64,000 nt of DNA from Balamuthia mandrillaris (taxonomy: Eukaryota), in NCBI GenBank assembly GCA_031835245.2, contig JAVKOQ020000054.1, positions 1-64,000 on the forward strand, written 5' to 3'. Below, piece by piece: positions 1-62,695 of this stretch. A model generated the notes under the pieces. The model was not told where the DNA came from and searched no databases. It saw only the letters and a program-made list of their open reading frames with translations. The position numbers and the translations under genes are program-made. How positions within the stretch are numbered: position 1 is the first letter of the stretch; each line of letters begins with the position of its first letter.

Positions 1-234
1 TGTTGGTAAAATCACCAACACTTATCTCAAGACTCCTCATGTTGGATCCGTCCCGGACCCTCAGCTCTCCTTTCTTTTGTATCCCCCATCCTTCCTTTCT
101 CCCTTTTCCCCTTTCTCTCGTGTACTTTGAAGCAACGTCGGAGATTCACTCTCGTTGTCCTTCCTCTATTCTCTTGAATACACTCCTTGTCTCGTCACCG
201 ACTCTTTCCTTCCTAAGGTTGGATTCAACCAACA
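1..234 (+). repeat. 5' LTR
   Basis: Appears identical by eye to 4949-5177 over 229 nt. Starts TGTTGGT and ends TTCAACCAACA, followed by T8. Confidence 0.93.
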
Positions 235-286
235 TTTTTTTTGACTTACATAAGTGATTCAAATCCCCTCTTGCGCTACGCACATC

Positions 287-3200
287 ATGGAAGCCACAGC
301 CGCTCTCGACACCCTCCGTGAACAGCTTCGCAAGGCACAACAGGAGTACCTCCACATGCTCCAACAATCTTTTCAACTTGAGCTCGACATCCCCAGCTGT
401 CCCGAGACTGAACGCGTCGCCAAAGAAGAAGAACAGCGCAAGTTAGACGAAGTCGCAGAACACACTAGAAAGGCCATGGAACGGTTACAACAACGTATAG
501 ACAGCTTTGCTATTTTCCTCGCATCCACCTCGGCCACACTAGGCAATTCTTCCACATGCAACACTTCCGCTGCCGCTGTTTCTCCTCCCTCGCCCGTTCC
601 ACAGATCTCTCCCATACAGTCACCTCGTTCGAGTTCACCCTCTCCCGTTGACGTTTCCGTCAACAACACAACTGCTTCCAACAGCACACACGTTGCCTCT
701 GTCCCAGAAACACAGAACAACACAACTACTCCTTCCCCTCCTACTCAGAAGAAAATGCCTCGCCTTCCCCCCGGACTACCTAAGTTCGACGTCAGCAAGC
801 GCCAGGACCCCGCTCTTCACACCATGGAACTGGAGTATCACCTCAACGCCTACAACTACCCTGAGGATAGATGGACGCAAGCCCTCATCACCACCCTTGT
901 TGGAGACGGACGTCTTTGGGCCATTAGCGCTCTACGAGACCAACCATGGAACGTCGCCCGAGACCTCTTCCATCGGCACTACCACCTTCCAGACATCGAG
1001 GCCACAACGATTGAGGCCGTCACGTCGTTTCGACAGAAGCCTGGCGAAAGCGTTCATCAACTCATCGATCGGTATTCTGTACTCTGTAATCGTCTTCCTG
1101 ACACCTTCTACGACTACCTCAAAGCCTTCTTCTTTGGACGAGCCCTTCTTCCCCACATCAAGTCGAAGTACAAGCAACAGACTCTTCGCAACAAGCCACA
1201 AGACGTCATCGCTGCTTTCGAGCTCGCAGTCCTCATAGAAGCAGAGTTTCCACAACCTTCTTCGAAAGATAAAGGTCACAGCAAATCACCTCAAAGGCAA
1301 TCACAGTTACCCCACACTATCGGTGCTGTTTGCGCACACTGCAAAACACGCAACCACACGGAAGATCAGTGCCAAAAAAAGGCCCGCAAGCTACAACGGC
1401 AGTCTTCTCCAGCTACGTCTGCTACACCAGCCTTATCTTCTGCTCCCACAACACGCAACCCCACGTCAACACTGCCGCAACAAACACGCGCGCAACTACC
1501 AGCACGCCAGTCCTCTCCCAGCTCACGTTCCCTCAACTCCATGTCTTCTACGCAACAACAGAGCAACACACCCGCTCCTGCCGCTGAGCAGCAAGACTCT
1601 ATCGGAGATGAAGAGGAGTACGACGAGTTCTATGAGTCACAACGGGCTCTCAACTCTATCACCGTCACTGACGATATGCCTGGACCCAACGACCCTATCT
1701 GTGCCCCGATGACCATCAACGGCCGTCGAGTCACCGCTGTCATAGATTCTGGCGCCAGCCACTCCTTTATGGACCCTTCCATTGTTGACTTAGTTCGTGC
1801 CAAAACCAAGCAAGCCAACTACATGGTCAAACTCGGACACCGTGAAACCACCGCTACATGTGCCGCCGAAACGGAGCCACTCGCTATTGGCTTCGGCGAA
1901 TGCTGTTTCCATCACATGTTCTCCGTGTTGCCTCAACCAGATGGTCAATCGATCATCCTGGGCCGCGACTTCATGCGCAAGTCCGGCATGGGCATTACAG
2001 ACATCCCAATCGACTACCCTGAGGAACCACTACCTCGCTCCAAGGACCACGACATCACCCGACGCCAACATCAACGTTTGGTGAAAGCTGTCAAGGAACA
2101 CATCCGCAAGCGTATTCTCGAAGCCATCGAGAAATACCTCCAGGAGAATGAGGCTCTACCGACAGGACCTTCCTGTACCCTCCCCGAAGCGGTTCTCCAT
2201 CTGGACACTGGAGACCACCCTCCTGTCTTTCGCCACCAATACCCCATCCCACACCATTTAATGCTCGTTATCGATCTGCAAGTGGCGGAATGGCTGCGTA
2301 CCGGCGTCATCGTGCTCGCCCCACCCGACAGTCCCTGGAACTCTCCTCTCACCGTCGTACCCAAGAAGGACGCTGACGGCAACGTCACCCAGTGGCGTGT
2401 CTGCATCGATCCGCGCCTTCTGAACAAGCTCCTTTTGGACCTCACATACCCAATCCCTACTATCCGCAGCATCATCTCCAAAGTGCAAGGCTTTTTCATC
2501 GCCTCCGCCCTCGACCTTATCTGGTCTTACACACAATGCCCCATTGCTCCTGAAGACTGCGTCAAAACTACATTCACATGGAACGGTCGTCGTTACATGT
2601 TCGTCGCCGCCATTTTTGGCATCAAAATCGTTGCACAGCACTTCCAGCGCCTCATGGACGTTGTCACTGCCGCTATTGCCGAGTTCACTTCCCATTACAT
2701 CGATGATCTCGCTGTCGTTTCCCAAAGTGTGGAAGAACATATCGAGCACCTTATCCGCGTTATCCTCACTCTCACCGCCGCGGGACTCCGTATCCGTCGG
2801 GAGAAGTGTCAGTTCGGGTACAAACGCCTCTGCATCCTCGGTTTTATCATCGACTGCAGCAACATCCTTCCCGACCAACGCAAGCTCTCCACCTTCGCAC
2901 TTCTCGAAGTACCTTCCACCAGCAAACAAATGCAATCCTTCCTTGGCTTTGCAGGCTACCTTCGCGACTTCATTCCCATGTTCGCCCAACTCGTTCGGCC
3001 CCTTGACACCCTCCGGTACATCAAGGATGTCCGTCCCCATTGGAACCAAGACTGCCAGGACGCCTTTGACGCCCTCACACACATCTTATCCAACCCACCT
3101 GTGCTCTCACTCTATGACCCATCCTTACCTCTTTTGGTTGGCACCGATGCCTCCCAATTCGGTGTTGGCGCTGTCCTTTACCAGATCGGACCCAACAACA

Positions 3201-4937
3201 AGCACTGGTACATCGCGTTCGTGAGCAAGGCTCTCAACCCTGCCCAACGCAACTATCCTGCCACCAAACGAGAGATGCTCGTCATCCTCTTCGCCGTCCG
3301 CTCCTTCAGCGATTGGCTCTATGGCAACAAGTTCATGATCTTTTCTGATCACAAGGCTTTGTCCTACCTCTTCACTTCTAACAGTAAAAAACTACACCCT
3401 CAACTATTGGGCTCTCCTCATCTCCGAGTACAACTTCGAGATCGTCCACCGCCCTGGCGTTCACATGATCCTTGAGGACTGTCTCTCTCGGCTGTACCCG
3501 CGCTCCTTCTGGGACAACGGTGGTCTTACACCTCCCTCCATCCCTCTTGACGCCCCTCGCTTGGCTCAGCACAAACCCCGCGACCTCAAGGCTCTCGCCT
3601 TGGTTGACAACTCCCCATCCACAGCCAAATCCGCTCTTAACAGGCACATCAAGGGCAGACTCAGCAAACAACTCCCTTCCACCTCCAAACGGAAACACCT
3701 CCTGCAGCTGTTCCACACAGAAGGACATCACGGAGCAGAAACCTTGTTCGTCAAGATCTGGAATGAAGGCTATTACTGGCCTACTCTTCGTGCTGACTGT
3801 TCCCGCACTTGCCTACAATGCAATGACTGCCTTAAGCACAACGTCACCAAACACGGCTTTCATTCCCTCAAAACCATCCACGCCACTTACCCCTTCGATC
3901 ACGTCGCCATCGATCTGTTTGGCCCACTTCCCACTTCTTCCAAAGGCTTCAACTACGTTCTGGTCACCACAGACATCGCTACCGGTTCCACTTCCCTCCG
4001 CCCAATCCACGCCAAGACTGCTAAAGACGTGGCCCGCACCCTGTATCAAGTCGTCTCTGATTTCGGTCTCCCTAAGATCCTTCAGTCAGACAACGGCACT
4101 GAGTTCGTCAACGCGATCATCAAAGCTCTCAAGACACTCTCTGGCTTTGAGCACCGGTTCATCTTGGCCTATCATCCTCGAGCCAACGGAGCTGCAGAAA
4201 GCCATGTCAAGCTGGCCCGCAACACCCTTAACAAGCTCATTAACAGTGATTGGTCTCACTGGCACACCTTTCTTCCTGCTGCCCAATACGCAATCAACCA
4301 ACGCGTCACCCATCGTCACAAGTCTTCCCCTTTCCAACTGTTCTTTGGTCGCCCAGCTACCACTCCACAAGACTATTCTTCTTCCTCCTCCCAGCTTCCT
4401 ACCGAAACTCTCCTCTTGGAGAATGCCAAGCAAATGCATGATATTGTCTACCCGGCATCAGCATCTTCTACCCGGAAGCACAGCTCCAACATCAAGGCTC
4501 AACATGATTCCTCTAAGCCACTCCGCGAATTTTCCACTGGTTCCAAAGTCATGCTACGCAAGCCTCCCAGGTCTCCCAAGTCTCTTCCTGAGTACTCTGG
4601 CCCCTACACAGTTATCCGCCGCAATCGTGGTGGTGCATATCTCCTCCAGGACAGCACCAGTGTTACCCTCCCAGACAAATTCAGCCCCAACCAGCTGAAG
4701 CTCGTTGCCCCCCCAGAGGACTCGACTACTAATGAACTCCTGCCAGATGAGTACGAAATAGATGAAATCCTTGATCACAAAGGCCCAGCCAATAAGCGTG
4801 AATACTTTGTTCACTGGAAAGGCTACCCACATTCTGACAACCAATGGATCCCTGCTAAAGATGTTCATGCTCCCAAACTCGTCAAACGTTATTGGGATCT
4901 CCTCAAACAATCTTCTTCACCTTCCACTTCTTCTTAA
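287..4937 (+). CDS. Gag-Pol polyprotein, single ORF broken by a +1 frameshift at ~3375-3392
   Basis: Gag zinc knuckle CAHCKTRNHTEDQC; protease AVIDSGASHSF; RT YIDD; RNase H TDAS...SDHKAL continuing in another frame as YWALLISEYNFEIVHRPG; integrase HHCC, D-D-E (IDLFG, SDNGTEF, NGAAES) and GPY; chromodomain EYEIDEILDHK...YFVHWKGY. Confidence 0.95.
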
Positions 4938-4948
4938 GAGGGGGAGTA

Positions 4949-5178
4949 TGTTGGTAAAATCACCAACACTTATCTCAAGACTCCTCATGTTGGATCCGTC
5001 CCGGACCCTCAGCTCTCCTTTCTTTTGTATCCCCCATCCTTCCTTTCTCCCTTTTCCCCTTTCTCTCGTGTACTTTGAAGCAACGTCGGAGATTCACTCT
5101 CGTTGTCCTTCCTCTATTCTCTTGAATACACTCCTTGTCTCGTCACCGACTCTTTCCTTCCTAAGGTTGGATTCAACA
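4949..5178 (+). repeat. 3' LTR
   Basis: Follows the polypurine tract plus TA; ends GGATTCAACA. Confidence 0.93.
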
Positions 5179-5591
5179 TCTTCATCCTCTGTTGACAACT
5201 ACCACTGCTGATTATCATCCTCCTCGACATTGCGGTTTGTTACTGCTCATCTGATTTTTGTTTTTTCTTTTGTTTTTTCTTTGGCTGGGCTGGCTGCCTG
5301 ACCAGCATCAATAAACCACTACCACCATCACCACCACCATCACCACTACCACTTGATGGACTGACTTGCTCTCTTTTTGGTTCTTTTCATCCTCACTCCC
5401 TTGCATGCATACAGTTATTGCTCCAGAGCTAGTTACCAAAGAAGCATTTCACAATCTATCCCCAGATGCTTTGCAACAATCCAACTGGTCTTCAGATACC
5501 AACTATCAGAGTTTTATTCATGCTGTTCGCCAACAGTTTGTTTGTGTGTTGTTTGTTTGTTTTGTTTGCATAGTATCCACCACCATCACCA

Positions 5592-5593
<2 letters not shown>

Positions 5594-5623
<30 letters not shown>

Positions 5624-5632
5624 TTATCTATC
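5594..5632. repeat. (TCTA)n microsatellite
   Basis: Tandem TATC units seen directly. Confidence 0.9.
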
Positions 5633-5713
5633 CAGTCAGTCATGGCTTGTTTGTTTGCTTGCTTGCTTGCTTGTATTCAAAAATGCACCCTTAGACCTAG
5701 CGCTCAGCTAGAA

Positions 5714-7132
5714 CGCACAGGTTTATTGTGGCAGCAGCAACATTCATAGTCTAAACAATAATTGTTATAATTGGTCTTGGTTCATTTGTTCTTCTTTTGA
5801 CATTCACTCACACTTTGTTTTTTGTCTCTTTCTTTCTCTCTCTTTCCCTCTTTTTTTCTTTATTTTTTTCTCTTTTTCTTCTTTTACACTGCTTCTTTAG
5901 GTGGTTCATGAAATTAACAGATTAACCTACCAAAGATCAACAACAACAATTTTATTGCTCCTTATGACTTGAATGTTGTACAACTTGGGTAGAAAATCAT
6001 CCAAATGAGTTTGATAAGAATGTGTTAGCTGAAGTTGCAGCAACTTTTCAGGCCAAAAACAAATCTTCTCTTCATTGATTGAATATTCATCATCAGCTTT
6101 GCCGTCAACACATCTCTGGCATTCTGCAAAGCTTTTTCAGTGGCTTGAATGAGCTGGTGGATGAGTTTGTAGCTCCTGTACTTCCCAAGTTGGTCAACGG
6201 ATCACCCATTCACAAAGCATTCCTCACCCCTCGTCAAGAGCAATCATCCTCTTCCCTTTGTTGACGGGGGATAAACCCTGCGGATCAAGAAAGGGATGGC
6301 ACGTAAGCGACTCTGGGTTTATTCACAAGAAAAGAGGTGTGGACCAAAGTGTGTGCTTTGAGTGTGTCGTGAGGAAAAAGGGAAAATAAAAAGGGGTGAG
6401 AGAATTCGGGGTATCCAGGGAAAGTGTCGACAGGAAGTCATAATGACGCGAATTGTTGGTTTTCCAACACCTTGCTTCTCTCGATGATGACAATGACAAG
6501 AGTCGTGACTCAAAAAAACAAACACCACAACGACAACGACTTCGCAGAGCGCTTCAGCGACAACAATTGTTATCCAGTCGACTCAAATATCGAAAGAATG
6601 GCCATTGGCAACGGATCGCTTGGCAGGCACCAGAAATCCGTAGACTTGTCACTTGGTGCTTGCGTGATGAATGGTCTTGGTTGTAGATTGCCAAACACTT
6701 GCCTACCCAACATCAAACCAACAATGATTGCTATGATAAATGGCGCAATCTCCTCACAGAATTCTCCAACAATCTGGGCGCTTTGAAGGCCAAATACTTG
6801 GTGGCCCACGATGAGGACTTTGACAAATCGGATGATGATGATGATAATGACAACACTTGCTTCCCATCATCATCTCCTACTTCTACTACCACTACAGTTA
6901 TATCCATCTTGGATGAAGAGGAAGAGACAAAGGAGAATGATGATGATGATGATGATGATGATATTATGATTATATCTTGTTAAATTATATAGGTATTCCT
7001 ATACAAAAATTGAAAAAATTGCTACTTTGACCCACTTTATCCGTTAGACTTATAGACTTAGAGTTTTATAGAATGGACCATGGGGAGTTGAATGCCGTAG
7101 GTTCTGAGTACCCGCCCCTAACCCTAACCAAG
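5714..7132 (+). mobile_element. Repeat unit copy A: intron-containing Myb/telobox-like pseudogene ending in (CCCTAA)2CC
   Basis: Aligns to 7779-8979. In-frame stops plus a solo-LTR insertion; encodes ...NDCYDKWRNL and an acidic tail. Confidence 0.7.
6259..6469 (-). mobile_element. Solo LTR (211 bp) of a related family
   Basis: Absent from copy B; TG...CA ends; 4-bp CCTT target duplication at 6255-6258 and 6470-6473. The minus strand starts TGTTGGAAAACCAACA, contains AATAAA and ends TCAACA. Confidence 0.9.
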
Positions 7133-7778
7133 TACATATAAAATACTTTACCTTTGCACTTGGTTGTAAGCCCACTATCACCTGACTTTTGCTTTTTTGT
7201 TTTTTTCCCTTGGGAGTGGCTTTTCCCTTTATCCCCTTTCACACACACTTGCAGCAGTTTCTTTCTTCTTTCTTTTACTTTTTTTTCTGCTTGCTTATTG
7301 GTATTTAAGCCAACAATGCCAAAAAATGCCAAATTTTGAATGGATTATTTGGGATAAATTCTGTCCGCTTGAGGTTCAAAAAATTAATTTCTCCGCACCA
7401 TAGCATTTACTGTTATTAAAAGTAAGTTCGTTGGAAAGAGCACATTTCATTCTACAAAAACCTTTTTTATTTTATTTTTTACTTGAAATACATCATAATA
7501 ATTGCTATCCTATCACATTTTTCCATAATGGCTGCTGTTTCTGCCAACAATTCGCAAAGTCCTAGATTTGATTGGCACCGCTGCGCCAAAACGGTGCAGT
7601 CGGCGCAGCTTTTTGCAGCTTCAAATGCTCCATCACATTGTATTCACATGCAAAATGGTTGACAATCCCATTATCTACAGCTTTTCCCCTTCAAAAGGAT
7701 ACTTTGTTCAAGATCGTAACTTTAAATGTGATCTAGAAAGGCTCTTACCAAAAATGGTAATGGTCCCCTAACCCTAAC

Positions 7779-8979
7779 CGCACAGGTTTATTGTGACAGT
7801 AGCAACATTCATAGTCTAAATAATAATTGTTATAATTGGTCTTAGTTCATTTGTTCTTCTTTTGACATTCACTCACACTTTGTTTTTTGTCTCTTTTCTC
7901 ATTTTCTTTCTTTTCCTCTTTCTTTCTCTCGCTTTCTCTTTCTCTCTTCTTCTTTTACACTGCTTCTTTAGGTGGTTCATGAAACGAACAGATTTGCCAA
8001 CCAAAGATCAACAAATACGATTTTATCGCTCCTTGTGGCTTGAATGTTGTACTGCTTGGGTAGAAAATCATCCAGATGAGTTTGATAAGGATGTGCTAGC
8101 TGAAGCTGCAGCCACCTATGAGGCCAAAAACAAATCTCCTCTTTGTTGGCCCAATATTCATCGCCAGCTGTGCTGTCAACACATCTCTGGCATTCTGCAA
8201 AGCTTTTTCAGTGGCTTGAATGAGCTGGTGGATGAGTTTGTAGCTCCTGTACTTCCCAAGTTGGTCAACGGATCACCCATTCACAAAGCATTCCTCACCC
8301 CTCGTCAAGAGCAATCATCCTCCTCCCTTGCTTCTCTCGATGATGATGATGACAAGAGTCCTGACTCAAAAAAACAAACACCACGACGACAACGAGTTCG
8401 CAGAGTGCTTCAGCGACAACAATTGTTATCCAGTCGACTCAAATATCGAAAGAATGGCCATCGGCAACGGATCGCTTGGCAGGCACCAGAAATCCGTAGA
8501 CTTGTCACTTGGCGCTTGCGTGATGGATGGTCTTGGTTGGAGATTGCCACACACTTACCTACCCAACATCGAACCAACAATGATTGCTAAGATAAATGAT
8601 GCAATCTCCTTACAGAATTCTTCAACAATCTGGATGCTTTGAAGGCTAAATACTTGGTGGCCCACGATAAGGATTTTGACAAATCAGATGATAATGATAA
8701 TGACAATACTTCCTCTCCATCATCATCTCCTATTTCTACTATCACTACCGTTATATCCATCTTGGATGAAGAGAAAGAGACAAAGGAGAATGATGATGAT
8801 GATGATGATATAATGATTATATTTTATTAGATTATATAAGTATTCCTATACAAAAATTGAAAAAATTGCTACTTAGACCCACTTTATCTATTAGACTTAT
8901 AGACTTAGAGTTTTATAGAATGAACCATGGGGAATTGAATGCTGTAGGTTCTGAGTACCCGCACCTAACCCTAACCAAG
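7779..8979 (+). mobile_element. Repeat unit copy B: Myb/telobox-like pseudogene flanked by CCCTAA motifs
   Basis: ORF reads RQRIAWQAPEIRRLVTWRLRDGWSWLEIATHLPTQHRTNNDC then stops. CCCTAACCCTAACC at 7766-7779 and CCTAACCCTAACC at 8964-8976. Confidence 0.7.
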
Positions 8980-9752
8980 GGCTGGCTGCCGTGGCGTTGG
9001 AGCTGCTGGGCTACAGCACGGACCAGAGCTTCTCCGTGATAAGCCTGGGCAACGCCATTCCAAGCCACAGTGCGGAGCCCAACAGCTTTGGCATTCGGTG
9101 GATCCAAGTTACCTACTTCTTGTTCGTTTTCGTGGTGCCGCTCCTTCACTTGGTCACTTAGTTGACGTTGTGGCTGCTGCCCCTCCGTCCTATCTTCCAA
9201 CGACTCTTGTTTCTCGTGTCGGAAGTGCTGAATGCCTGGTCCTCTCTGGAGGTCTTTATCGTCTCCATCGTCGCCGCGCTGCTCCAGATAGACCAGTTTG
9301 CTGAATTCATTGTTGGAGACAAGTGCGAAGCCATCGACGACATTGTGGAACAGTACCTCAAGAACTTCTTACACGGCGAGCCAGCGACTTGCTTCTCCGT
9401 CGTGGCAACGTTGCAGTGGGGATGCTGGCTCCTCTTCATAGCATGCTTGGTCTACCAGCTTGCCGCCTTCTTGGTGATGCGTCTCTGCCACAAGATCATG
9501 GAAGAACGAGAGCATCAGGCCTTTCGTGCTTCTCTCAACTCGCACACCGCAGCTTCCTCTTCCTCATCTTCTGGTTCTGCTTCTCCCTCCTCTTGGCCCC
9601 TTTCCTCACTGCAGGGCGGAAATGAAGAAGAGACGTTGCAACAGACGAAAGCTATTTTGGACGAGATGAAGGACAGCCGCTGCGGGCCTGCCATTCGTTA
9701 TGTTTGCTTGTTGCTGCGTTTGGTGAGGGAAGAAGAAAAAGAGGTAGACTGA
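8976..9752 (+). pseudogene. 5'-truncated PqiA-like (paraquat-inducible protein A domain) membrane protein
   Basis: Frame runs from the repeat junction (GLAAVALELL...) with an in-frame TAG at 9159-9161; motif AWSSLEVFIVSIVAALLQI; no start codon. Confidence 0.6.
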
Positions 9753-15094: not shown

Positions 15095-16261
15095 TTACAA
15101 GTGATATGATGGCGAGACAAGACGGCCACCCTGAATGATAATATCTTCAGGGCGGAGTGGCTTCCCTTGGAAGAAGTTGGTGAGGATGTCCTTTACGCCA
15201 GCCGCGTAGCGAGCCTGTGCGTCAAGCGTGGTCCCTGAGTAGTGAGGCGTGAGGGCATGGCGGGGCATCCTGCGCCAGGGATGATTTGGAGGAGCAGGTT
15301 GAGGATACCACACATCTCCTGCATAGCCTGCCAGGTGTCCGCTTTGTAACGCATTGGCCAGAGCTTCCGTGTCCACGATCTTGCCTCGAGCCGTGTTCAC
15401 AAGGTAACACCCTTTCTTCATGGATGAGAGGAGGCGATGATCAAACAGACGGTCCGTGCGCGAAGTGAGAGGGGTGTTGATGGTCACGATGTCGCACTGG
15501 CTGACCAACGACTCCAACTCCACATAGGTCACTCCAAGTGCTCTCTCTTGCTCAGGAGAGAGCCGCTGGTAGTCATGGTAGAGCATCTTGACCCCAAAAG
15601 GTTGCAGCCTCTGGCATATGCGCTGTCCTATCCTACCACAACCGACTGTGCCCACCACTTTACCTTCCAGATCGAAGGCCTCACGGGCGATATCGGCTAC
15701 CTTCCACTCCCCGTTTACCACTTGCTGGTAGGCTGGCACAAAGTTGCGCACCAGGATGAGGATCTGCATGACCACATGCTCGGCCACGCTGGAGACATTG
15801 CTGCCAGTGACCTCAGCAACCGTTATCCCCGCCTGCCGCGCCGCCTCCAGGTCTACATGGTCTGAGCCCACCCCTGCAGTGACCACCATCTTCAAGTTGG
15901 GTCCCTTGGCTATCCTCTCCTTGGTCACGTAGGCCGGATGGAAGGGCGTCGTGATAAGCACGTCGGTGGTGGGTAGCTCTTTGTCCAACGCTTGCTCCTT
16001 GTCAGTGAGAACCTTGTACTCATGCCCTTGGCTCTGAAGCATCTCTCTGAGGCCCAGTCCGTTCTCTGCGCAGCCAAGCAGGCGAGGCTCTCTTCTGGCG
16101 GCCTCACCACCTGGATAGAGCACGGCTACTATCTTGTCCCTTCTTGTTGGAGTACTGCTGAACAAACGGGAGGAGGAGGGAGCCGTTGCAGGTCTCCAAG
16201 CCTTGAAGCTGTTGCATCCAGCGGCCACGGTGGCCCCCAGTGTCGCCCTATTCCCAAACAT
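15095..16261 (-). CDS. fdh: NAD-dependent formate dehydrogenase with probable mitochondrial presequence
   Basis: ITTPFHPAY, AGVGSDHVDL, GCGRIG, NTARG, GDVWYPQPAP, TPHYSGTTLDAQARYA. Confidence 0.96.
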   Translation of the reverse strand: MFGNRATLGATVAAGCNSFKAWRPATAPSSSRLFSSTPTRRDKIVAVLYPGGEAARREPRLLGCAENGLGLREMLQSQGHEYKVLTDKEQALDKELPTTDVLITTPFHPAYVTKERIAKGPNLKMVVTAGVGSDHVDLEAARQAGITVAEVTGSNVSSVAEHVVMQILILVRNFVPAYQQVVNGEWKVADIAREAFDLEGKVVGTVGCGRIGQRICQRLQPFGVKMLYHDYQRLSPEQERALGVTYVELESLVSQCDIVTINTPLTSRTDRLFDHRLLSSMKKGCYLVNTARGKIVDTEALANALQSGHLAGYAGDVWYPQPAPPNHPWRRMPRHALTPHYSGTTLDAQARYAAGVKDILTNFFQGKPLRPEDIIIQGGRLVSPSYHL

Positions 16262-16685
16262 GATGAGGAGGGTAAGAGATGTGTTTGTTCCAGTTGACCA
16301 AAGAAAGAAGCAGTGGCGAGAGGCAAAGAATGAAGTATTCCTTTTGGTGCGACCAAGGGCGTGTAACGAAGACTAGATGGAAACTTGAGGATGGGTTTCT
16401 TTTATATGACACCAATGGGGTTGGGCTTTGGTTGGTGGAACTCGCAGAAAACCGGCCTTAAAAGGGGGTTTGGTGCTAAAAACAGAGGCCACCACCTGAA
16501 TTATTGTTGCTTTCGTGTAGATTTTCGACTCCACTGGAGGGTGAGACCCAGAGTGAAAGGAGAGAGGAATGGGGAAAGAGAAAGAGAAGCATTGTAGCAC
16601 AACCAGAGTTAACAAATAGCACAACGGGAAATGTGCAAAAAATAATATCTATAAAATAATAAGCAGCAGAAGTATGTACAAGCAT

Positions 16686-17261: not shown

Positions 17262-19079
17262 AGAAATAGGTACCATCCAGTAGGTGATGAGACAAAAGAT
17301 GATGGGAAAGACGGTCATGAAGGGCAGGTCAGCAATGCTTTTGCTGAGGAAGTAGGCCAGTGTTCCGTAGGCTCCACTCGAGTGTTCTCGTATAAACACG
17401 CCTCGTTCCTCTGGAAACATCACCAATGTTGTCATCATCGATCCCATAGCCTGATTCACCACGATAAAGAACAAAGCACCTTTTAAGAGAGAGAGAGAAG
17501 TGTGTTAGCTAAATTAAGGGAGGGGAGAGAGAGAGAGAGAGAGAGAGAACAGAACAGAACAGAACAGAACAGAACAGAACAGAACAGAACAGAACAGAAC
17601 AGAACAGAACAGAACAGAACAGAACAGAACAGAACAGAACAGAACAGAACAGAACAGAACAGAACAGAACAGAACAGAACAGAACAGAACAGAACAGAAC
17701 AGAACAGAGAGGAAATTACCTTGTCTGTCTTGAACAGACTCTTGGTCCTTTGAGAGATCAAAGTAGAGAACGCCGACTAACAAGCCCAAGACAAGCGTTT
17801 GGATGAAACGAACGGTGGTCAACATAGGATTACGGATGGAGGTCAGCAACGACCGCCATGTGAGCACCATCAGCTGGAAGAGCCAATTTGGCGATTTAGG
17901 TGTTTCCAGTCTGCTGATGGAGGAACCGAGCTCGCTACCGTGACCCTCGTCGTCGCTGTCCAGGTTTACTGGTTCGATCGGCTTCTTTTTCTTCTTCTCC
18001 TTTTGGCTGTTTCTTAGCCGCAGGAAACTTCCTCTCAGCCCTTTTTCTCCCTTGGACTTCTCTCCGACGGGTTCGAGGGCGGTTGCTCCTTCCTTCTCTT
18101 TGGGTTCATCTCCTTCGTCTTCGGTAAGGTCCCCCTCTACCAAAGAACCCAAGCCAAGCTCTTCGTCAGAAAGCGGTGGAAGCTTCTTCGTCTCTCTGTA
18201 ATGACGAACCAATGCTCTGACTCTGACTTTGCCTTCGGATTTGCTGGATATGTGGCTGTCGCTTTTAGCAAGATCCACTGCAAAGTGTCACCAAAATTTG
18301 TGGTTAGAAGAAAGAACGAAAAGATGGAAAGAATGGAGAAGAACGAAACTGATATACTCAGCTGGGTTTGTGTATTTAGGGCACTTGTAACCAATAGAAG
18401 CAAAGTATGGAACAATCTTGGACGGCGGACCTAATGATGAGAATGTTAGAATAGCTAGAAGAGGAGGCAGGAGGATGGGAGAGAACAAAAACCATTGTAA
18501 ATTATGTTGCCATGGGTCATGAGAATAAGACGATCAAAGAGAGCGAGGATGTCGCTGCTCGGTTGATGGATCGTTGTGATGATGGTTCTTCGCGCCATCG
18601 CAAGCTTCTTTAGCGTCTCCACCAGCGTGAACGCAGTAGAACTGTCCAAGCCGCTCGTCGGTTCATCCAAGAACAACACACTAGGGTCGGTAATGAGCTC
18701 CATGCCGATGGAAGTTCGTTTGCGCTGACCGCCAGAAATGCCTCTCCTCTCCACGCTACCGATGTGCGTAGCAGAGCACTCCTCTAAACCCAACTCCTCG
18801 ATCAAGCTCTGCACTTTTTCCTGTCGTTTGTTGCCACGAACACCACCAGGAAGCCTCAAACGAGCGGAGAAGGTGAAGGCCTCTTGTGGGGTGAGGAAGC
18901 CGAGCAGCACGTCGTCCTGCATGATGTAGGCGCTGAGCTTGCGCCATTTGCGAAGACTGATCTGCTTTCTGGGTCGGCCGTTGATCAGGAAGTTGCCGTC
19001 GATCTTGCCCGACTGAACTCGTCCGGCCAAAATGTTCAACAAAGTAGTCTTTCCCGCTCCTTTTTGTTGTTTAGTGAGT

Positions 19080-45637: not shown

Positions 45638-45668
<31 letters not shown>

Positions 45669-46559
45669 AAGAACAAGAAGAAGAAGAACAAGAAGAAGAA
45701 CAAGAACAAGAACAAGAACAAGAACAAGAACAAGAACAAGAACAAGAACAAGAACAAGAACAAGAACAAGAACAAGAACAAGAACAAGAACAAGAACAAG
45801 AACAAGAACAAGAACAAGAACAAGAACAAGAACAAGAACAAGAACAAGAACAAGAACAAGAACAAGAACAAGAACAAGAACAAGAACAAGAACAAGAACA
45901 AGAACAAGAACAAGAACAAGAACAAGAACAAGAACAAGAACAAGAACAAGAACAAGAACATAAGACAACATAAGACAACAACATGAACAAGAACAAGAAC
46001 GAAGAAAAAGAATATCTAGCAAAAGAAGAAGCAGGTGGGGAAGAACGAAAGAAGTTACTTTATAACCGAGTGCTTCGGCTCGTGCGACAGCTTTCTCCAA
46101 ACAAGGTACTTTGAAAGTTACGTGATGGACCCGCGGTCCGCCTTTGCTCCGCAAGTACCTCACCACAAAGTTTCGTTCATACTCCCTGGCAAACAATACA
46201 AAACAGTTAACAAATGGAAGACAGAAAAAAAAAGAGTTCACACATACTCGGCACTCAGCTCGGAATGGGGAGTGATGACTTCGAGTTTTGCGCCGTTGCC
46301 AAACTTCCACTGAGCAAAGTCAAAGGTCGGAGCACGATCGGCGTCATGTGGGATGCCGCCCCATCGCCCTTCCAGCAACTCTCCTAAAGAGGTTATAGAG
46401 GGAGGGAGAGAGAGAGAGAGAGAGAGGCGTTACATAAGCAAATGTCTTTTTTTTTTCGGAAGGATGATGAAAGCAACCCGCTTTGCTCAGGTCGTTCACT
46501 GCGCAAGAGATGTGATCCAACAAGATTCGCGGAGGAGGAGGAGAGCCTTCTTCTTCCAT
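44833..46559 (-). CDS. VOC/glyoxalase-family (methylmalonyl-CoA epimerase-like) protein, multi-exon
   Basis: LDHISCAV, KLEVITP, GPRVHHVTFKV, WKEAFLYP, VVIQLAE. Confidence 0.78.
45639..45960. repeat. (AAG)n-(AAGAAC)n intronic microsatellite
   Basis: Tandem hexamer array in a VOC gene intron. Confidence 0.95.
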
Positions 46560-46786: not shown

Positions 46787-47020
46787 CGGAATGCCCCTGT
46801 TTTTTTGGTGGTGCGAACAGCTGAACTAGAGACACGTCAAGGAGTCTTGAGGAAATGAAAGGAGAAACCAAAGAGCACGACCCAAGATGAGCACTTTCAA
46901 TGAAGGTTATTCGAGAAGAGAGAAAAGCGAGCCAGAGAAGAGAGCACGAAGCAAGAAGGGGAGCAGGGCTAATAAGTAACTTAATAACCGACAAAGAAGA
47001 AGAAGAAGAAGAAAGGGCAG

Positions 47021-48719
47021 ATGGCATCAGGGTCAGGCGGTGAGGAAGAAGAGTTTTCAGCAGAGGAGGCAGAGGACAGCAAAACCCTTTCTCCCTTCCT
47101 TCAAGCCGTTACCACCTCCTGCGACCTCTCCAGCAACAGCTTGCCTAAGTTGCCGAGCACATTTGGGCTGCTGACCGCCCTCACCCACTGCGACCTCTCC
47201 TGCAACAAGTTAACGGCCTTGCCCGCCGAGTTTGGCCAGCTCACCGCTCTCACCCATTGCTGCCTCTGGGGTAACCGGTTGAAAGTCTTGCCGGGAGAGT
47301 TTGGGCAGCTGACGGCCCTCACCCGCTGCGACCTCCACGAGAACAAACTGAAGAGCTTGCCCACCGAGTTTGGTCGGCTGACCGCCCTCACCCACCTCAA
47401 CCTCAGCAAAAACTTCGGCCTGAAAGCTTTGCCCTCTGAGTTTGGCCAGCTGACGGCCCTCACCCGTTGCAACCTCTCCAGCAACAAGTTGAGGCGTTTG
47501 CCAAGGGAGTTTGGCCGGCTGACCGCCCTCACCCGTTGCGACCTCTCCCACAACGGCTTGAGGGCCTTGCCACGGGAGTTTGGCCAGCTCTCTTCCTTGC
47601 ACACCCTCGCCCTGGCCTCCAACAATTTGACGGCCTTGCCAGGAGAGCTTGGCCGGCTGACCGCCCTCACCCGTTGCGACCTCAACGAAAACTACAAGTT
47701 TGAGGGCTTTGCCAAAGGAGTTTGGCCAGCTCTCTTCCTTGCACACTCTCGTCCTGGCCTCCAACAAGCTGACGGCCTTGCCGAGAGAATTCGGTCAGCT
47801 CACCTCCCTCACGGATTGCTATCTCTGCTGCACAGATGCTTCCCTCTACCACCGGGAGCTCAATCGCTTGGCTGCACTGCCATCCTCCGCCTTTCAGCTT
47901 CTCCCTTTGTTTAACTCTGACATCTGTTCTCAGCCCTGTGCGAAGAAGGAGACCAAGCAGACCAAGCAGAGAAGAGCAACAAAGGGCAACAGAGGAAATG
48001 GGAGTGTGAAAAGTTTGTGGGATTTGGCTGGAGAGGCGGTGCTGAGAAACCAGCTTTTGCCGACAGGCATGTTGGCCCCTGTTCCTCAATTGCCTTTCAC
48101 TTGGCCTGCTTCTTCTCTGCGCCTAGAACCCGAAAATAAAGTTGAAGACGAAGAAGAAGATTATGAAGACGAAGAAGAAGAAGAAGAAGAAGAAGAAGAA
48201 GAACAAGAAGAAGAAGAAGAAGAAGAAGAAGAACAAGAACAAGAACAAGAACAAGAACAAGAAGAACAAGAAGAACAAGAAGAGGATGAAGAACAAGAAC
48301 AAGAAGTGTACGAAGCAAGCGCTGAAGACGAATTTGAAGAAATAGAAGTAATAGAAGTCGAAGAGGAAAAAGAAGAAGAAGAAGAAGAAGAAGAAGAAGA
48401 AGAAGAACGAGAAGAACAAGAAGGAGAAGGAGAAGAACAGCAACAACAGCAGCAGCAAGTGAAAGCAAAAGACGAAGCAAGTGTGGAGTGGATGGTACTG
48501 CCAGAGGAAGTGACGGAAAGACTGGAAAGGTTGCAGCAACGATGCGATGTGTGTGAATGTCTGTTTTTGGAGACAACGAGAGAAGAGGAGGAAGAAGGAA
48601 GAAGAGGGAGGCTTGTGCGAAGATATTGGGACAAGGAAAGAGAAGTGTGGTGGGAGTTGTTGTGCTGCAGCCAAAGGTGCTTGACTTCGCCTCTTCCTGG
48701 CTCTTTGCTTGAACTTTGA
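47021..48719 (+). CDS. LRR protein copy 1 (~11 LRRs, BC-box-like motif, Cys-rich tail); 1-nt frameshift at ~47700
   Basis: 23-aa LRRs; SLWDLAGEAVL; poly-Glu; RCDVCEC...LLCCSQRCL. AAGTTTGAGG here versus AAGTTGAGG in a sister repeat. Confidence 0.85.
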
Positions 48720-48976
48720 AAGGAATAATTTTCAACATTACGCCCTTTCTTTGAATGGAGAAGAGACCACTCGAAACAAAAGTCTTTTAAAGAAGAAAAC
48801 AAAGAGTACAACCCAAGATTGGTGCTTTGCAAGCCCAACGCCAAGCGTTCTGCTTTTCCTCTCGGCAGACACCAGAAGCAAATGATCCTGGAAGCGAGCA
48901 CGAAGCAAGAAGGGGAACAGGGCTAATTAATAACTTATTGACATAGAAGAAGAACAAGAAGAAGAAGAAAGGGCAG

Positions 48977-50305
48977 ATGGCATCAGGGTCAGGCGGTGAG
49001 GAAGAAGAGTTTTCAGCAGAGGAGGCGGAGGACAGCAAAACCCTTCGCTCCTTCCTCCGAGCCGTTGCCACCTCCTGCGACCTCTCCGCCAGCGAAGAAG
49101 AATTGACCAAGTTGCCGAGCACATTTGGGCAGCTGACCGCCCTCACCGACCTCGACCTCAACGAATGGGACCTGGAAGCCTTGCCCCCAGAAGTTGGGCA
49201 GCTGACGGCCCTCACCCGCTGCGACCTCGGCGGGAACCTATTGAAGAGGTTGCCTGCCGAGTTTGGCCGGCTGACCGCCCTCACCCACCTCGCCCTTAGC
49301 AGCAACCAGCTGAGGAGCTTGCCCCCCGAGTTTGGCCTTCTGTCCGCTCTTTCCTTCTGTGACCTCTCCTACAACAAGCTGACCAGCTTGCCTCCTTCCT
49401 TCGGCCAGCTGACCGCTCTCACGGAGTGCAACCTCTACTACAACAGCTTGAGGGCCTTGCCACGGGAGTTTGGCCAGCTCTCTTCCTTGCACACCCTCGT
49501 CCTGGCCTCCAACAAGCTGAGGGCCTTGCCGAGAGAATTCGGTCAGCTCACCTCCCTCACGGATTGCTATCTCTGCCGCACGGACGTTTCCCTCTACCAC
49601 CGGGAGCCCAATCGCTTGGCTGCGCTGCCCTCCTCCGCCTTTCAGCTTCTCCCTTTGTTTCGCTCCAACCTCCGCTATCAGCCCTGTGCGAAGAAGCAGG
49701 CCAAGCAGAGAGGAGCAACAAAGGGCAACAGGGGAAATGGGAGCGTGAAACGTTTGTGGCATTTGGCTGGAGAGGCGGTGCTGAGAAACCAGCTTTTGCC
49801 GACAGGCATGTTGGCCCCTGTTCCCGACTTGCCCTTCACTTGGCCTGCTTCTTCTCTGCAGGAGAAGGACCAAATAGAACAAGATGAAGATGGAGACGAA
49901 GAAGAAGAAGAAGAAGAAGAAGAAGAAGAAGAAGAAGAAGAAGAAGAAGAAGAAGAAGAAGAAGAAGAAGAAGAAGAAGGAGAAGAACAACAGCAGCAAC
50001 AGCAGCAAGTGGAAGCAAAAGACGAAGCAAATGTGGAGGGGATGGTGCTGCCGGAGGAAGTGAAGGAAAGACTGGAAAGGTTGCAACAACGATGCGACGT
50101 GTGTGAACACCTGTTTTTGGAAGCGGCCCCTGCGCAAGAAGAAATGGAAGAGGAAGCGGTGGAGGAAGAAGGAAGAGGGAGGCTTGTGCGAAGGTATTGG
50201 GACAAGGGAAGAAAAGTGTGGTGGGAGTTGTTGTGTTGCAGCCAAAGGTGCTTGACCAAGCCCCTTCCTGGCTCTTTGCTTGAACGTGGGCAGGAACAGA
50301 AGTAG
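48977..50305 (+). CDS. LRR protein copy 2 (~8 LRRs), intronless
   Basis: Tandem paralogue of copy 1, sharing upstream sequence, N-terminus and C-terminus. Confidence 0.9.
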   Translation: MASGSGGEEEEFSAEEAEDSKTLRSFLRAVATSCDLSASEEELTKLPSTFGQLTALTDLDLNEWDLEALPPEVGQLTALTRCDLGGNLLKRLPAEFGRLTALTHLALSSNQLRSLPPEFGLLSALSFCDLSYNKLTSLPPSFGQLTALTECNLYYNSLRALPREFGQLSSLHTLVLASNKLRALPREFGQLTSLTDCYLCRTDVSLYHREPNRLAALPSSAFQLLPLFRSNLRYQPCAKKQAKQRGATKGNRGNGSVKRLWHLAGEAVLRNQLLPTGMLAPVPDLPFTWPASSLQEKDQIEQDEDGDEEEEEEEEEEEEEEEEEEEEEEEEEEEGEEQQQQQQQVEAKDEANVEGMVLPEEVKERLERLQQRCDVCEHLFLEAAPAQEEMEEEAVEEEGRGRLVRRYWDKGRKVWWELLCCSQRCLTKPLPGSLLERGQEQK

Positions 50306-61420: not shown

Positions 61421-61450
61421 AAAAAATAGTGTTGGAAACGCGAAGAACTT

Positions 61451-62695
61451 CTATTCCGTTCTAAGCTCAATCCAAGAGCCAGGAAGGGGCCGGGCCAAGC
61501 ACCTGTGGCTGCAGCACAACAGCTCCCACCGCACTTGCCTTTTCCTATCCCAAAACCTTCGCACAAGACTCCCTCCTCCTCCCTCCCCCTCTCCTTCTTG
61601 TGCAGGGGCAGCCTCCAAAAACACGCATTCACACACGTCGCATCGTCGCTGCAACCTTTCCAGTCTTTCCTTCACTTCCTCCGGCAGCACCACCACACGT
61701 TGTTGTTCTTCACTTTCTTCTGCCCCTTTGGTTGCTTCTTCCTCCTCCTTCGCTGGTGGCTCGGTTGTGCGCTGCTTCTGGTGGTTCTGCTCCTGCCATG
61801 GATGAGGAGGCAGCCAAGCGAAGGGCAAGGGTGGAACAGGGGCCAACATGCCCACAGGTAAAAGCCGGTCCCTCAGCACCGCCTCTCCGCTCAACTGCCA
61901 CAGACTTTTGGGCATGTGGCTGGCCATGGCTGTCGCCCTCGCTTTCTCCTTCTCTTCTTCCATCCTTTCTTGCCCACAGGGCAGAGAGGAAAGGTCGAGC
62001 CAAGGAAGCAGCTGATAGGAGGAGGTTGGGATGGCCTTCAACTGGTTGTTGGAGAGGTCACAGTCGGTGAGGGCGGTCAGCTTCCCAAACTCTGCGGGCA
62101 AGGCCCTCAACTGATTGTAGGCGAGGTCGCAGTAGGTCAGAGCGGTCAGCCGACCAAACTCGCGGGGCAGGGCTGCCAGTTGGTTGTGCCAGAGCTCGCA
62201 GCGGGTGAGAGCGGTCAGCCGGCCAAACTCAGGGGGCAAGGCCTTCAACTGGTTGCCGGAAAGGTCGAGGTGGGTGAGGGCGCTCAGCTGACAAAGCTCA
62301 GGCGGCACGGCACTCAACATGTTGCAGGAGAGGTTGCAGCGGGTGAGGGCGGTCAGCCGACCGAACTCGCGGGGCAGGGCTTCCAGATTGTTGAAGGAGA
62401 GGTTGCAGTGGGTGAGGGCGGTCAGCCGACCGAACTCGGAGGGCAAGGCCGTCAACTCGTTCTTCGAGAGCTTGCAGTGGGTGAGGGCGGTCAGCCGACC
62501 AAACTCAGCGGGCAAAGCTGCGAGCTGGTTCTTGGAGAGGTTGCAGTGGGTGAGGGCGGTCAGCCGTCCGATCTCACCGGGCAAGAGGGTCAAATCAGCG
62601 CCCGAAAGGCAGCAGGTGGCAGAACGTGCAAAGGGTTGGAGGAGGGCGGGAAGTTCCCCGCCACGCACCATCGCGTCCGCTCCCTCGTGTTCCAT
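61451..62695 (-). CDS. LRR protein copy 3 (~9 LRRs), intronless
   Basis: Same 23-aa LRR, PKSLWQLSGEAVL and RCDVCECVFL...LLCCSHRCL. Confidence 0.9.
   Translation of the reverse strand: MEHEGADAMVRGGELPALLQPFARSATCCLSGADLTLLPGEIGRLTALTHCNLSKNQLAALPAEFGRLTALTHCKLSKNELTALPSEFGRLTALTHCNLSFNNLEALPREFGRLTALTRCNLSCNMLSAVPPELCQLSALTHLDLSGNQLKALPPEFGRLTALTRCELWHNQLAALPREFGRLTALTYCDLAYNQLRALPAEFGKLTALTDCDLSNNQLKAIPTSSYQLLPWLDLSSLPCGQERMEEEKEKARATAMASHMPKSLWQLSGEAVLRDRLLPVGMLAPVPPLPFAWLPPHPWQEQNHQKQRTTEPPAKEEEEATKGAEESEEQQRVVVLPEEVKERLERLQRRCDVCECVFLEAAPAQEGEGEGGGGSLVRRFWDRKRQVRWELLCCSHRCLARPLPGSWIELRTE

What the first reader, a model, noticed from the sequence alone, without database searches (positions are those of the whole stretch)
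5714..8979. Chain of units joined by (CCCTAA)2 motifs and encoding a telobox-like Myb protein
Seen: three telomere-type motifs (7116-7129, 7766-7779, 8964-8976), each at a segment junction, all on the sense strand. The reconstructed protein RQRIAW..E...L...GWSW..I......RTNNDCYDKWRNL resembles TRF/TRB Myb domains (DKWRN telobox). Known: endonuclease-less Penelope-like elements (Athena/Coprina) end in reverse-complement telomeric repeats, chain head-to-tail and retain introns. Inference: an undescribed telomere-associated mobile element carrying its own telomere-repeat-binding protein. No RT or transposase for it is visible here.
Basis: partly seen in the sequence, partly recalled or inferred. 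Interest (0 to 1): 0.8.

Follow-up and report, generated by a model that had tools for sequence, protein, structure and literature searches.

The report
Telomere-tipped recombinase transposon with Myb domain
These are broken, likely nested, pieces of a multi-copy amoeba jumping gene whose sister copies encode a predicted Cre-like DNA-recombining enzyme fused to a Myb domain and whose right end is two telomere repeats, which the Myb domain likely grips to steer insertion; our literature searches found no description of this design.

Summary
The three (CCCTAA)2 motifs and the Myb domain are real, but this is not a Penelope-like retroelement. Units A (at least 5179-7129) and B (7780-8976) are decayed 3' parts of a dispersed Balamuthia mandrillaris family whose other copies carry a tyrosine recombinase (YR) in the same ORF. 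Two sister families share the design, one also the terminal sequence. 563 protein clusters match; in an 81-row alignment the R-K-H-R-W-Y residues are conserved in every row with a residue there, and the model matches Cre. Another isolate has the empty site: an intact PqiA-domain exon with no telomeric repeat, sharing only CCAAG with the junction. So the doublet is the element's right end and insertion is internal. Best reading: a Crypton-like DNA transposon that inserts through a short CCWAG-like core; its telobox-like Myb likely binds its own telomeric end, and nesting gives the chain. Untested: left end, DNA binding, subtelomeric bias. The window's family has Tyr at the TRF1 Lys421 position; one outside relative lacks the doublet. 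No prior description found; Repbase was not searchable.

The parts
1..5178 (+). Ty3/gypsy chromovirus-type LTR retrotransposon nested in element A; it hides A's recombinase exons, which would lie left of the window
   Evidence: LTRs 1-229 and 4949-5177 100% identical; protease, RT, RNase H, integrase, chromo Pfam hits
5179..7129 (+). Element A: 3' part of a family-1 YR-Myb transposon, pseudogene
   Evidence: tblastn to YR-bearing records P0008/P0010; 92% identical to B
5179..5234 (+). Exon piece of A just downstream of the YR catalytic region (TTTADYHPP), with a 1-bp frameshift near 5195; GT donor at 5235
   Evidence: the extra base is absent from most laid contigs (table 4)
5415..5535 (+). 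Exon of A (IAPELVTKEAF...HAVRQ), between GT-AG introns 5235-5414 and 5536-5900 (some gene models use a mini-exon at about 5695-5720 instead of the 5900 acceptor)
5901..6983 (+). Last exon of A: helical middle domain, Myb domain, acidic tail; stops at 5923, 5965, 6076, 6684
6259..6469 (-). 211-bp solo-LTR-like insertion (TGTTG...CAACA) with a 4-bp CCTT duplication, interrupting A
   Evidence: many different flanks and very high depth in 4 of 4 runs
6603..6755 (+). Myb domain of A (recognition helix QTNNDCYDKWRN)
   Evidence: PF00249 E=0.014; alignment
7116..7129 (+). Right terminus of A: (CCCTAA)2CC, preceded by GAGTACCCGC; joined to the middle segment through CAAG
   Evidence: same end read as LRVPAPNPNP in family-2 gene models P0042/P0043
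7130..7765 (+). Middle segment: multi-copy, non-coding here; likely the left-end region of the family or of a short non-autonomous derivative
   Evidence: depth 409-716 vs 26-73 on the neighbouring gene in X4; an X4 contig joins 7767 to the right-end region at 7051 with 30 letters between; P0014 joins it to a B-type exon in another record
7766..7779 (+). Second (CCCTAA)2CC; likely the minimal right end of the middle derivative (CCC microhomology), joined to B with only 1 bp of overlap
   Evidence: absent at this place in the X4 joint contig
7780..8976 (+). Element B: 3' part of a family-1 copy starting inside intron 2; last exon 7972-8830, Myb about 8459-8611, stops at 8588 and 8597
   Evidence: identical to record P0025 over 198 residues
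8963..8979 (+). Right terminus of B and insertion junction; CCAAG (8975-8979) is shared with the empty host site
   Evidence: X4 high-depth contig ends at 8976; X4 contig 20 covers 8975-9096 and runs left into in-frame host sequence
8975..9752 (+). 3' part of the interrupted host PqiA-domain gene; stop at 9159 present here, absent in X3 and X4
   Evidence: PF04403 E=3.5e-8; (table 3, position 9160)

Best explanation
The region holds the decayed right-hand parts of likely nested copies of a dispersed amoeba element whose sister copies encode a predicted tyrosine recombinase fused to a Myb domain, whose right end is (CCCTAA)2, and which likely moves as a Crypton-like DNA transposon, with the Myb domain predicted to bind that telomeric end. 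Shown: one ORF with core-binding, catalytic (R-K-HxxR-W-Y), helical and Myb parts in other copies; many different flanks at the right end; retained introns; an internal insertion into a coding exon whose empty site has no telomeric repeat and shares CCAAG with the junction. Inferred: the recombinase excises a circle and integrates it by strand exchange in a 2-5 bp core resembling a degenerate telomere unit (CCWAG); the Myb holds the terminal TTAGGG doublet much as an arm-binding domain positions a phage integrase, and also draws new insertions to telomere-like sites in other copies; repeated insertion into earlier copies (host gene <- B <- middle derivative <- A <- gypsy and solo LTR) leaves a row of right ends, which is the 'chain'. 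My odds by step: YR-encoding transposon 0.9; moves without its own RT 0.8; Myb reads TTAGGG 0.6 for families 2/3, 0.4 for the window's family; this exact nesting order 0.5.
For: YR in the same ORF: P0008/P0010 extend the window's ORF with FSFHSLRAG..W..Y; family-1 fragments P0164/P0137 supply the TGAR and VTKG motifs; full proteins in families 2 and 3. Breadth: 563 clusters at E<=1e-3, 165 at 1e-30; named ones outside Balamuthia are Monocercomonoides exilis and Blattamonas nauphoetae; M. exilis also has TTAGGG telomeres (PMC6759080 passage). Catalytic residues in 81 aligned rows: R 74 (7 gaps), K 76 (5 gaps), H 81, R 81, W 80, Y 79. AlphaFold model of relative P0052 pLDDT 90.8, best Foldseek hits Cre, then lambda Int and Xer; Atlas model of P0033 matches PF00589. 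Myb in 99 of 166 non-Balamuthia homologues, 93 with both HxxR and Myb; TRF1-equivalent positions: R380 R in 93 of 100, K421 K in 47 of 95 (R 18, Y 13), D422 D in 79 of 95, R425 R in 70 of 95 (numbering from the contact table in PMC2377444). A non-YR metagenomic protein with the same RTNVDCKDK helix hits only telomere proteins, 17 of 17 PDB hits. Right end: X4 contig at depth 824 stops at 8976; other flanks at 8958, 8967, 8972, 8973, 8976; 4 of these 5 junction types read CCTAG, one CCTCAG. Empty site in frame. Nesting: 3 of 15 tagged family-2/3 records lie within 3 locus tags of a family-1 record, 0.07-0.10 expected, p about 1e-4; P0032 and P0050 fuse family 2 to family 3. Telomere-frame peptides of >=6 residues in 4 of 168 homologues, all at protein ends, shuffled mean 0.06 (2 of the 168 later proved Balamuthia-like and had no run). 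The donor/target-core model fits active Chlamydomonas Cryptons (PMC9977147 passage).
Against: The left terminus and left host junction were never seen, so a direct repeat at both ends is untested; no catalytic exon lies in the window. The middle/B junction shares only 1 bp with the target. Profile scores do not favour teloboxes: GT-1 trihelix (19 bits) and c-Myb outrank TRF2 (12 bits) for the Balamuthia profile, c-Myb R3 (42 bits) outranks TRF1 (32 bits) for the broad one. The window's family has Tyr at K421 and Asn at V418 (V418's role is recalled, not from a call). The only outside locus with DNA, L002 (6097 bp, introns, YR+Myb), has no CCCTAA and one TTAGGG. The telomere-frame peptides come in both orientations, and other alternating pairs reach similar counts (AS 4, DN, EK, ES 2 each). 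The number of terminal repeats varies and every junction has G-strand microhomology, which priming models also predict. The CCWAG core rests on about 7 junctions, one with a known empty site; the 8976 row is a 5-contig consensus at 0.47 agreement. One RNA run gave 6 reads on 356 bp, 4 on the element end: activity is not shown.
Confidence: 0.7

Rival explanations
1. Same YR transposon, but the Myb is a generic Myb/trihelix-type domain that does not read TTAGGG; the terminal doublet is a recombination core or a site for a host telomere protein, and in the window's family the Myb has changed or lost specificity.
For: HMM ranking puts GT-1 and c-Myb above TRF; Atlas features only say Myb; K421 position is K in only 47 of 95, Y in family 1; 3 of 81 relatives carry a chromodomain; L002 lacks the doublet.
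Against: R380, D422, R425 equivalents are kept in most homologues; the identical helix occurs in a TRF-like protein; two families only about 40-50% alike in protein keep the same telomeric end.
Confidence: 0.15
2. A DIRS/Ngaro-like YR retrotransposon whose gag-RT part lies upstream of the YR gene, outside the window.
For: Atlas neighbours include ALOG/integrase and RT-bearing YR clusters; the 5' part of A is not visible.
Against: No RT domain in 81+27 scanned homologues; L002 has no ORF >=100 aa in the 1.5 kb upstream and no hit to the window's RT; introns kept in A, B and L002; no inverted or split terminal repeats seen. DIRS RT is a separate ORF (recalled), so the protein scans do not exclude it.
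Confidence: 0.06
3. One reading: an Athena/Coprina-like chain, RNA with 3' CCCUAA repeats primed on G-rich DNA ends by an RT in trans, giving 5'-truncated head-to-tail units at or near telomeres.
For: Repeats are on the sense strand at the 3' end, vary in number, and show G-strand microhomology to the flank; B looks 5'-truncated; the orientation would fit a left chromosome end; EN- PLEs use such repeats and can keep introns (PMC8557442 passages).
Against: The element encodes an intact-looking YR, not an RT; no hammerhead; the target is a coding exon; gene models show host-like sequence upstream of copies (P0019, P0022) and copies on contigs of up to 665 kb.
Confidence: 0.05
4. The doublets are telomerase-added repair scars or host branch points/promoter boxes in an ordinary segmental duplication.
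For: Each motif is followed by AG within 3-7 bases; the middle motif has a different upstream context and could be a repair scar.
Against: The same end with the same upstream 10-mer recurs at many flanks and in a second family; the empty host allele lacks it.
Confidence: 0.04

Closest known systems
Crypton DNA transposons (CryptonF, S, A, I; Kojima and Jurka 2011, PMC3212892; active CryptonF-1_cRei, PMC9977147)
   Same: Single YR transposase without RT, no TIRs, short terminal core shared with the target, a C-terminal DNA-binding domain in some groups, non-autonomous derivatives.
   Different: C-terminal domain is a Myb, not GCR1_C; no GCR1_C, NDC10_II or DUF3504 hit in 81 members; terminus is a telomeric doublet; hosts are an amoebozoan and oxymonads, absent from the 2011 host table.
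CryptonV (microsatellite-targeting Cryptons; cited in PMC8869645)
   Same: YR DNA transposon linked to simple repeats.
   Different: Here the repeat is carried by the element and the one known target lacks it; CryptonV sequences could not be compared.
Athena/Coprina EN- Penelope-like elements (PMC8557442 passages)
   Same: Reverse-complement telomeric repeats at the sense 3' end, chains, introns.
   Different: No RT, no hammerhead, internal insertion, YR enzyme.
Starship captains (DUF3435)
   Same: Eukaryotic YR with a C-terminal extension; a structural neighbour in the Atlas (TM 0.54).
   Different: No DUF3435 Pfam hit in 81 members; no cargo seen.
TRF1/TRF2/TRB telobox proteins
   Same: Single Myb with N-arm Arg and K-D-x-x-R recognition helix in families 2/3.
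   Different: Cys replaces the hydrophobic residue before K-D; fused to a recombinase; family 1 has Y for K.
Ciliate TBE/Tec elements (recalled, no call)
   Same: DNA transposons with telomeric repeats at their ends (TBE) or a YR gene (Tec).
   Different: They have long TIRs and DDE transposases; none seen here.

Membership tests
Crypton | Encodes a tyrosine recombinase with the catalytic residues | tested here: met
   In sister copies and homologues; not visible in the window's own copies
Crypton | No reverse transcriptase | tested here: inconclusive
   None in 81+27 proteins or L002; no full-length Balamuthia copy was seen as DNA
Crypton | No TIRs or long terminal repeats | tested here: inconclusive
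   None in 5170-9100, but A's left end is outside the window
Crypton | 4-6 bp direct repeat at both termini matching the target | tested here: inconclusive
   Right junction shares CCAAG with the empty site and with the A/middle junction; left host junction unseen; middle/B junction shares 1 bp
Crypton | Dispersed multicopy, polymorphic insertions | tested here: met
   25 family-1 records; many flanks and an empty allele
Crypton | Circular excision intermediate | not testable with these tools
   The A/middle junction has the form right end + putative left end, but could equally be a nested insertion
CryptonF / CryptonA subgroups | GCR1_C or NDC10_II (F); DUF3504-type YR (A) | tested here: not met
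   0 of 81 members at E<=1e-3
Named Repbase Crypton groups (S, I, V and later) | YR phylogeny groups with them | not testable with these tools
   No reference sequences held; my tree has no outgroup
EN- Penelope-like (Athena/Coprina) | TERT-related RT | tested here: not met
EN- Penelope-like (Athena/Coprina) | Hammerhead ribozyme beside the 3' telomeric repeats | tested here: not met
   No hammerhead among 6 weak Rfam matches; no core motif on the sense strand
EN- Penelope-like (Athena/Coprina) | Reverse-complement telomeric repeats at the 3' end | tested here: met
EN- Penelope-like (Athena/Coprina) | Restricted to chromosome termini | tested here: inconclusive
   One insertion is in a coding exon; genome-wide position untested
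DIRS/Ngaro | RT/RNase H ORF plus YR, inverted or split direct repeats | tested here: inconclusive
   Not seen in L002 or the window; 5' part of Balamuthia copies unseen
Telobox Myb (TRF/TRB) | Base-reading R380, K421, D422, R425 equivalents | tested here: inconclusive
   All four in families 2 and 3; three of four in the window's family (K to Y); 43 of 95 homologues have K-D-x-x-R/K
Telobox Myb (TRF/TRB) | Closer to TRF than to other Myb classes by profile | tested here: not met
Telobox Myb (TRF/TRB) | Binds duplex TTAGGG repeats | not testable with these tools
   needs a binding assay

The most novel reading that the evidence does not exclude
An undescribed, widespread superfamily of eukaryotic YR transposons that captured a telomere-protein DNA-binding domain and uses telomeric repeats as its attachment site. 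Such an enzyme would also recombine element ends with real telomere arrays, making terminal translocations or new chromosome ends, which could help explain the 100-plus small chromosomes of Balamuthia, and it would be a natural Cre-like recombinase addressed to TTAGGG.
Probability: 0.3. Interest if true: 0.9.

Novelty: new variant of a known kind. Interest (0 to 1): 0.72.

Why it matters
Target choice by eukaryotic YR transposons is poorly understood and few are known to be active. A family that pairs a telobox-like reader with telomeric ends gives a directly testable rule for end recognition and targeting, links transposons to telomere-protein evolution (capture or donation of the Myb), and explains a class of short interstitial telomeric repeats as transposon ends. 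It also matters for annotation: copies break host genes and produce fused gene models named after host enzymes (P0018, P0019, P0042, P0049).

Tried and rejected
No own genome held, so copies could not be mapped. First two translations were one base out of frame and were redone. Shallow AlphaFold model of P0033 was poor (pLDDT 37) and its fold search uninformative. The wide VIA structure search never ran, so the middle helical domain has no structural match. Viral contigs: no relatives by protein or by the 23-base right end. Metagenome contigs gave only a Myb-only, non-YR locus (L001). No RNA holder was listed for the stretch; this is no evidence on expression. The second allele at 8988 is not matched in the window and stays unexplained. 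Introner reading rejected: using the AG after the motif and the GT in the putative left end would lose one base of the host frame (reasoned). Helitron reading rejected: no Rep/helicase and no stable hairpin at the right ends. Target-site-duplication reading of the 14-mer around B rejected: the empty site lacks it. The tree (75 of 81 rows, quick method; dropped P0008, P0087, P0130, P0166, P0176, P0186) has no outgroup and only shows that four M. exilis proteins fall in three places. Three 50-residue members of the P0031 cluster are unrelated and were not counted. The earlier-findings index returned nothing. The original Athena paper was not held.
Full report
Observation. The three motifs are at the stated places, all on the + strand; 3 matches of the 13-mer against 0.04 expected. 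Two units, 5714-7132 and 7779-8979, match at 1100 of 1190 aligned columns; A also holds a 211-bp TGTTG...CAACA insert with a CCTT duplication. The 7130-7765 segment is unrelated to either. Left of A lies a gypsy element with identical LTRs; right of B, the 3' part of a PqiA-domain gene.

What the ORF is. Unit B read with X at its stops finds 17 clusters, all named Balamuthia mandrillaris, and 8 further members; P0025 is identical to B over 198 residues and may be this locus, so I do not count it as independent. P0008 and P0010 continue the same ORF upstream with FSFHSLRAG, W and Y motifs; P0164 and P0137 give the TGAR and VTKG motifs of this family. Exons at 5179-5234 and 5415-5535 match these records, so A runs to the gypsy LTR and its recombinase exons would lie left of the window. 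Searching with the recombinase part found two sister families, 2 (17 members, 15 listed) and 3 (2 members), with full YR + helical + Myb proteins.

Breadth and fold. A profile of 7 Balamuthia proteins matches 563 clusters at E<=1e-3 (150 listed). Of 10 looked up, 1 had an organism name, Monocercomonoides exilis; a further search added more M. exilis records and Blattamonas nauphoetae, plus one record labelled as a bacterial MAG. In an 81-row alignment the catalytic columns read R 74, K 76, H 81, R 81, W 80, Y 79, the rest gaps. The model of P0052 has pLDDT 90.8 and matches Cre best, then lambda Int and Xer. Pfam on the 81 rows gave Myb (50), phage integrase (4), chromo (3) and no RT, GCR1_C, NDC10_II, DUF3504 or DUF3435; 27 long or named homologues, partly overlapping, gave no RT either. 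L002, an intron-bearing YR-Myb gene on a 6097-bp MAG contig, has no ORF of 100 aa upstream and no RT-like hit.

The telomeric motif is the element's right end. In run X4 a contig of depth 824 stops at 8976, and X1, X3 and X4 show other flanks at 8958, 8967, 8972, 8973 and 8976. X4 contig 20, at single-copy depth, covers 8975-9096 and runs left into sequence that reads SFEFQFQ in frame with GLAAVAL: the empty, uninterrupted allele, without CCCTAA; X3 and X4 also lack the stop at 9159. The target shares CCAAG with the B junction, and the A/middle junction has the same five bases. Four of five other junction types read CCTAG and one CCTCAG; this is a small sample without empty sites. Family-2 gene models end in LRVPAPNPNP, the same terminus in another frame. 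The host telomere is TTAGGG (bioRxiv 10.1101/2025.02.25.640156, passages, which also say its TEs are not yet fully annotated). Among 168 homologues, 4 carry telomere-frame peptides of 6 or more residues, all at protein ends, against 0.06 in shuffles, but in both orientations and with other alternating pairs as common. L002 has no doublet. So the telomeric end is firm for two Balamuthia families and only suggested elsewhere.

The chain. The middle segment is multi-copy (depth 409-716 against 26-73 on the host gene in X4; the tool warns depth is no copy number), one X4 contig joins it to the right-end region with 30 letters between, and P0014 joins it to a B-type exon in another record. I read it as a left-end region or short non-autonomous derivative. 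The simplest history is nested insertion, of which the window shows only right halves. Families cluster: 3 of 15 tagged family-2/3 records lie within 3 tags of a family-1 record, 0.07-0.10 expected (assembly breaks at repeats may inflate this), and P0032/P0050 fuse families 2 and 3. Tandem integration at the A/middle junction fits as well; the order is inferred. The copies look silenced: CpG observed/expected 0.46-0.55 against 0.71-0.89 elsewhere in the window, 20 of 66 transitions in CpG-type context (p=0.02); one RNA run gave 6 reads on 356 bp.

Is the Myb a telobox? TRF1 reads bases with R380, K421, D422, R425 (table in PMC2377444). Families 2 and 3 keep all four (RTNVDCKDKWRN); the window's family has RTNNDCYDKWRN, three of four. 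Across homologues: R 93 of 100, K 47 of 95, D 79 of 95, R 70 of 95. L001, a non-YR protein with RTNVDCKDKYRT, hits 17 telomere proteins of 17 PDB hits. Against: whole-domain scores rank GT-1 and c-Myb above TRF. Verdict: telobox-like helix, binding untested, weakest in the window's family.

Mechanism. By the Crypton model (PMC3212892 passages and section 5; PMC9977147 passages) a YR recombines a short terminal donor with a near-identical target. I infer the same here with a CCWAG-like core at the edge of the telomeric doublet, the Myb holding the doublet and biasing insertion towards telomere-like sites in other copies. Excision, binding and activity are not shown. An Athena-like priming model explains the variable repeat number but not the recombinase, the lack of hammerheads (features from PMC8557442 passages) or the exonic target.

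Novelty. It works like a Crypton; membership is partly tested and the F and A subgroup domains are absent. Full-text searches (listings and abstract starts only) showed no paper describing a YR-Myb transposon with telomeric ends; passages of PMC8869645, PMC6759080 and PMC12130899 do not describe one. Repbase, subscription journals and all supplements (including the element list of PMC3212892) were not seen, so a catalogue entry may exist. I rate it a new variant of a known kind, possibly a new group, interest 0.72.

Noticed in passing
L001 3-1890: Non-YR, TRF-like gene (C-terminal Myb hitting only telomere proteins) whose stop codon runs straight into three TTAGGG repeats; possible autoregulation or a link to these elements.
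   Followed up: partly
window 8988: Runs X1 and X3 hold another allele in which the PqiA 3' part is joined at 8988 to sequence not found in the window, 11 bp from B's junction; may be an imprecise excision or a separate deletion.
   Followed up: partly
window 1-5178: Young chromodomain gypsy element with identical LTRs and a pol/integrase frame break near 3340-3475; the same LTR sequence is read inside another family-1 record, P0021, suggesting it targets these silenced copies.
   Followed up: partly
window 6259-6469: Solo-LTR-like repeat of a second, very abundant family with a 4-bp duplication.
   Followed up: partly
P0138, P0139, P0149 (alignment A3): Three of 81 relatives hit a chromodomain; P0139 and P0149 are listed with chromo and no Myb: the targeting module may be exchangeable.
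   Followed up: no
P0033 residues 10-31: CxxC...FCSxxC zinc-finger-like motif at the N-terminus of family 3; resemblance to FCS/MYM fingers is recalled, Pfam gave only a weak NinG hit.
   Followed up: no
P0030: Family-1 gene model with the right-end peptide twice in a row, hinting at another chain of right ends.
   Followed up: no
window 46900-50300 and 61450-62600: Dispersed, partly inverted copies of a gene with 69-bp repeats that look like leucine-rich repeats.
   Followed up: no
window 34602-35389, 17546-17708, 45642-46012: Long simple repeats: (TCTCTG)134, (AGAAC)33 inside an ABC-transporter-like gene, (AAGAAC)62.
   Followed up: no
window 15095-16372 (-): Intronless ORF that looks like NAD-dependent formate dehydrogenase (recognised from memory, not searched).
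   Followed up: no
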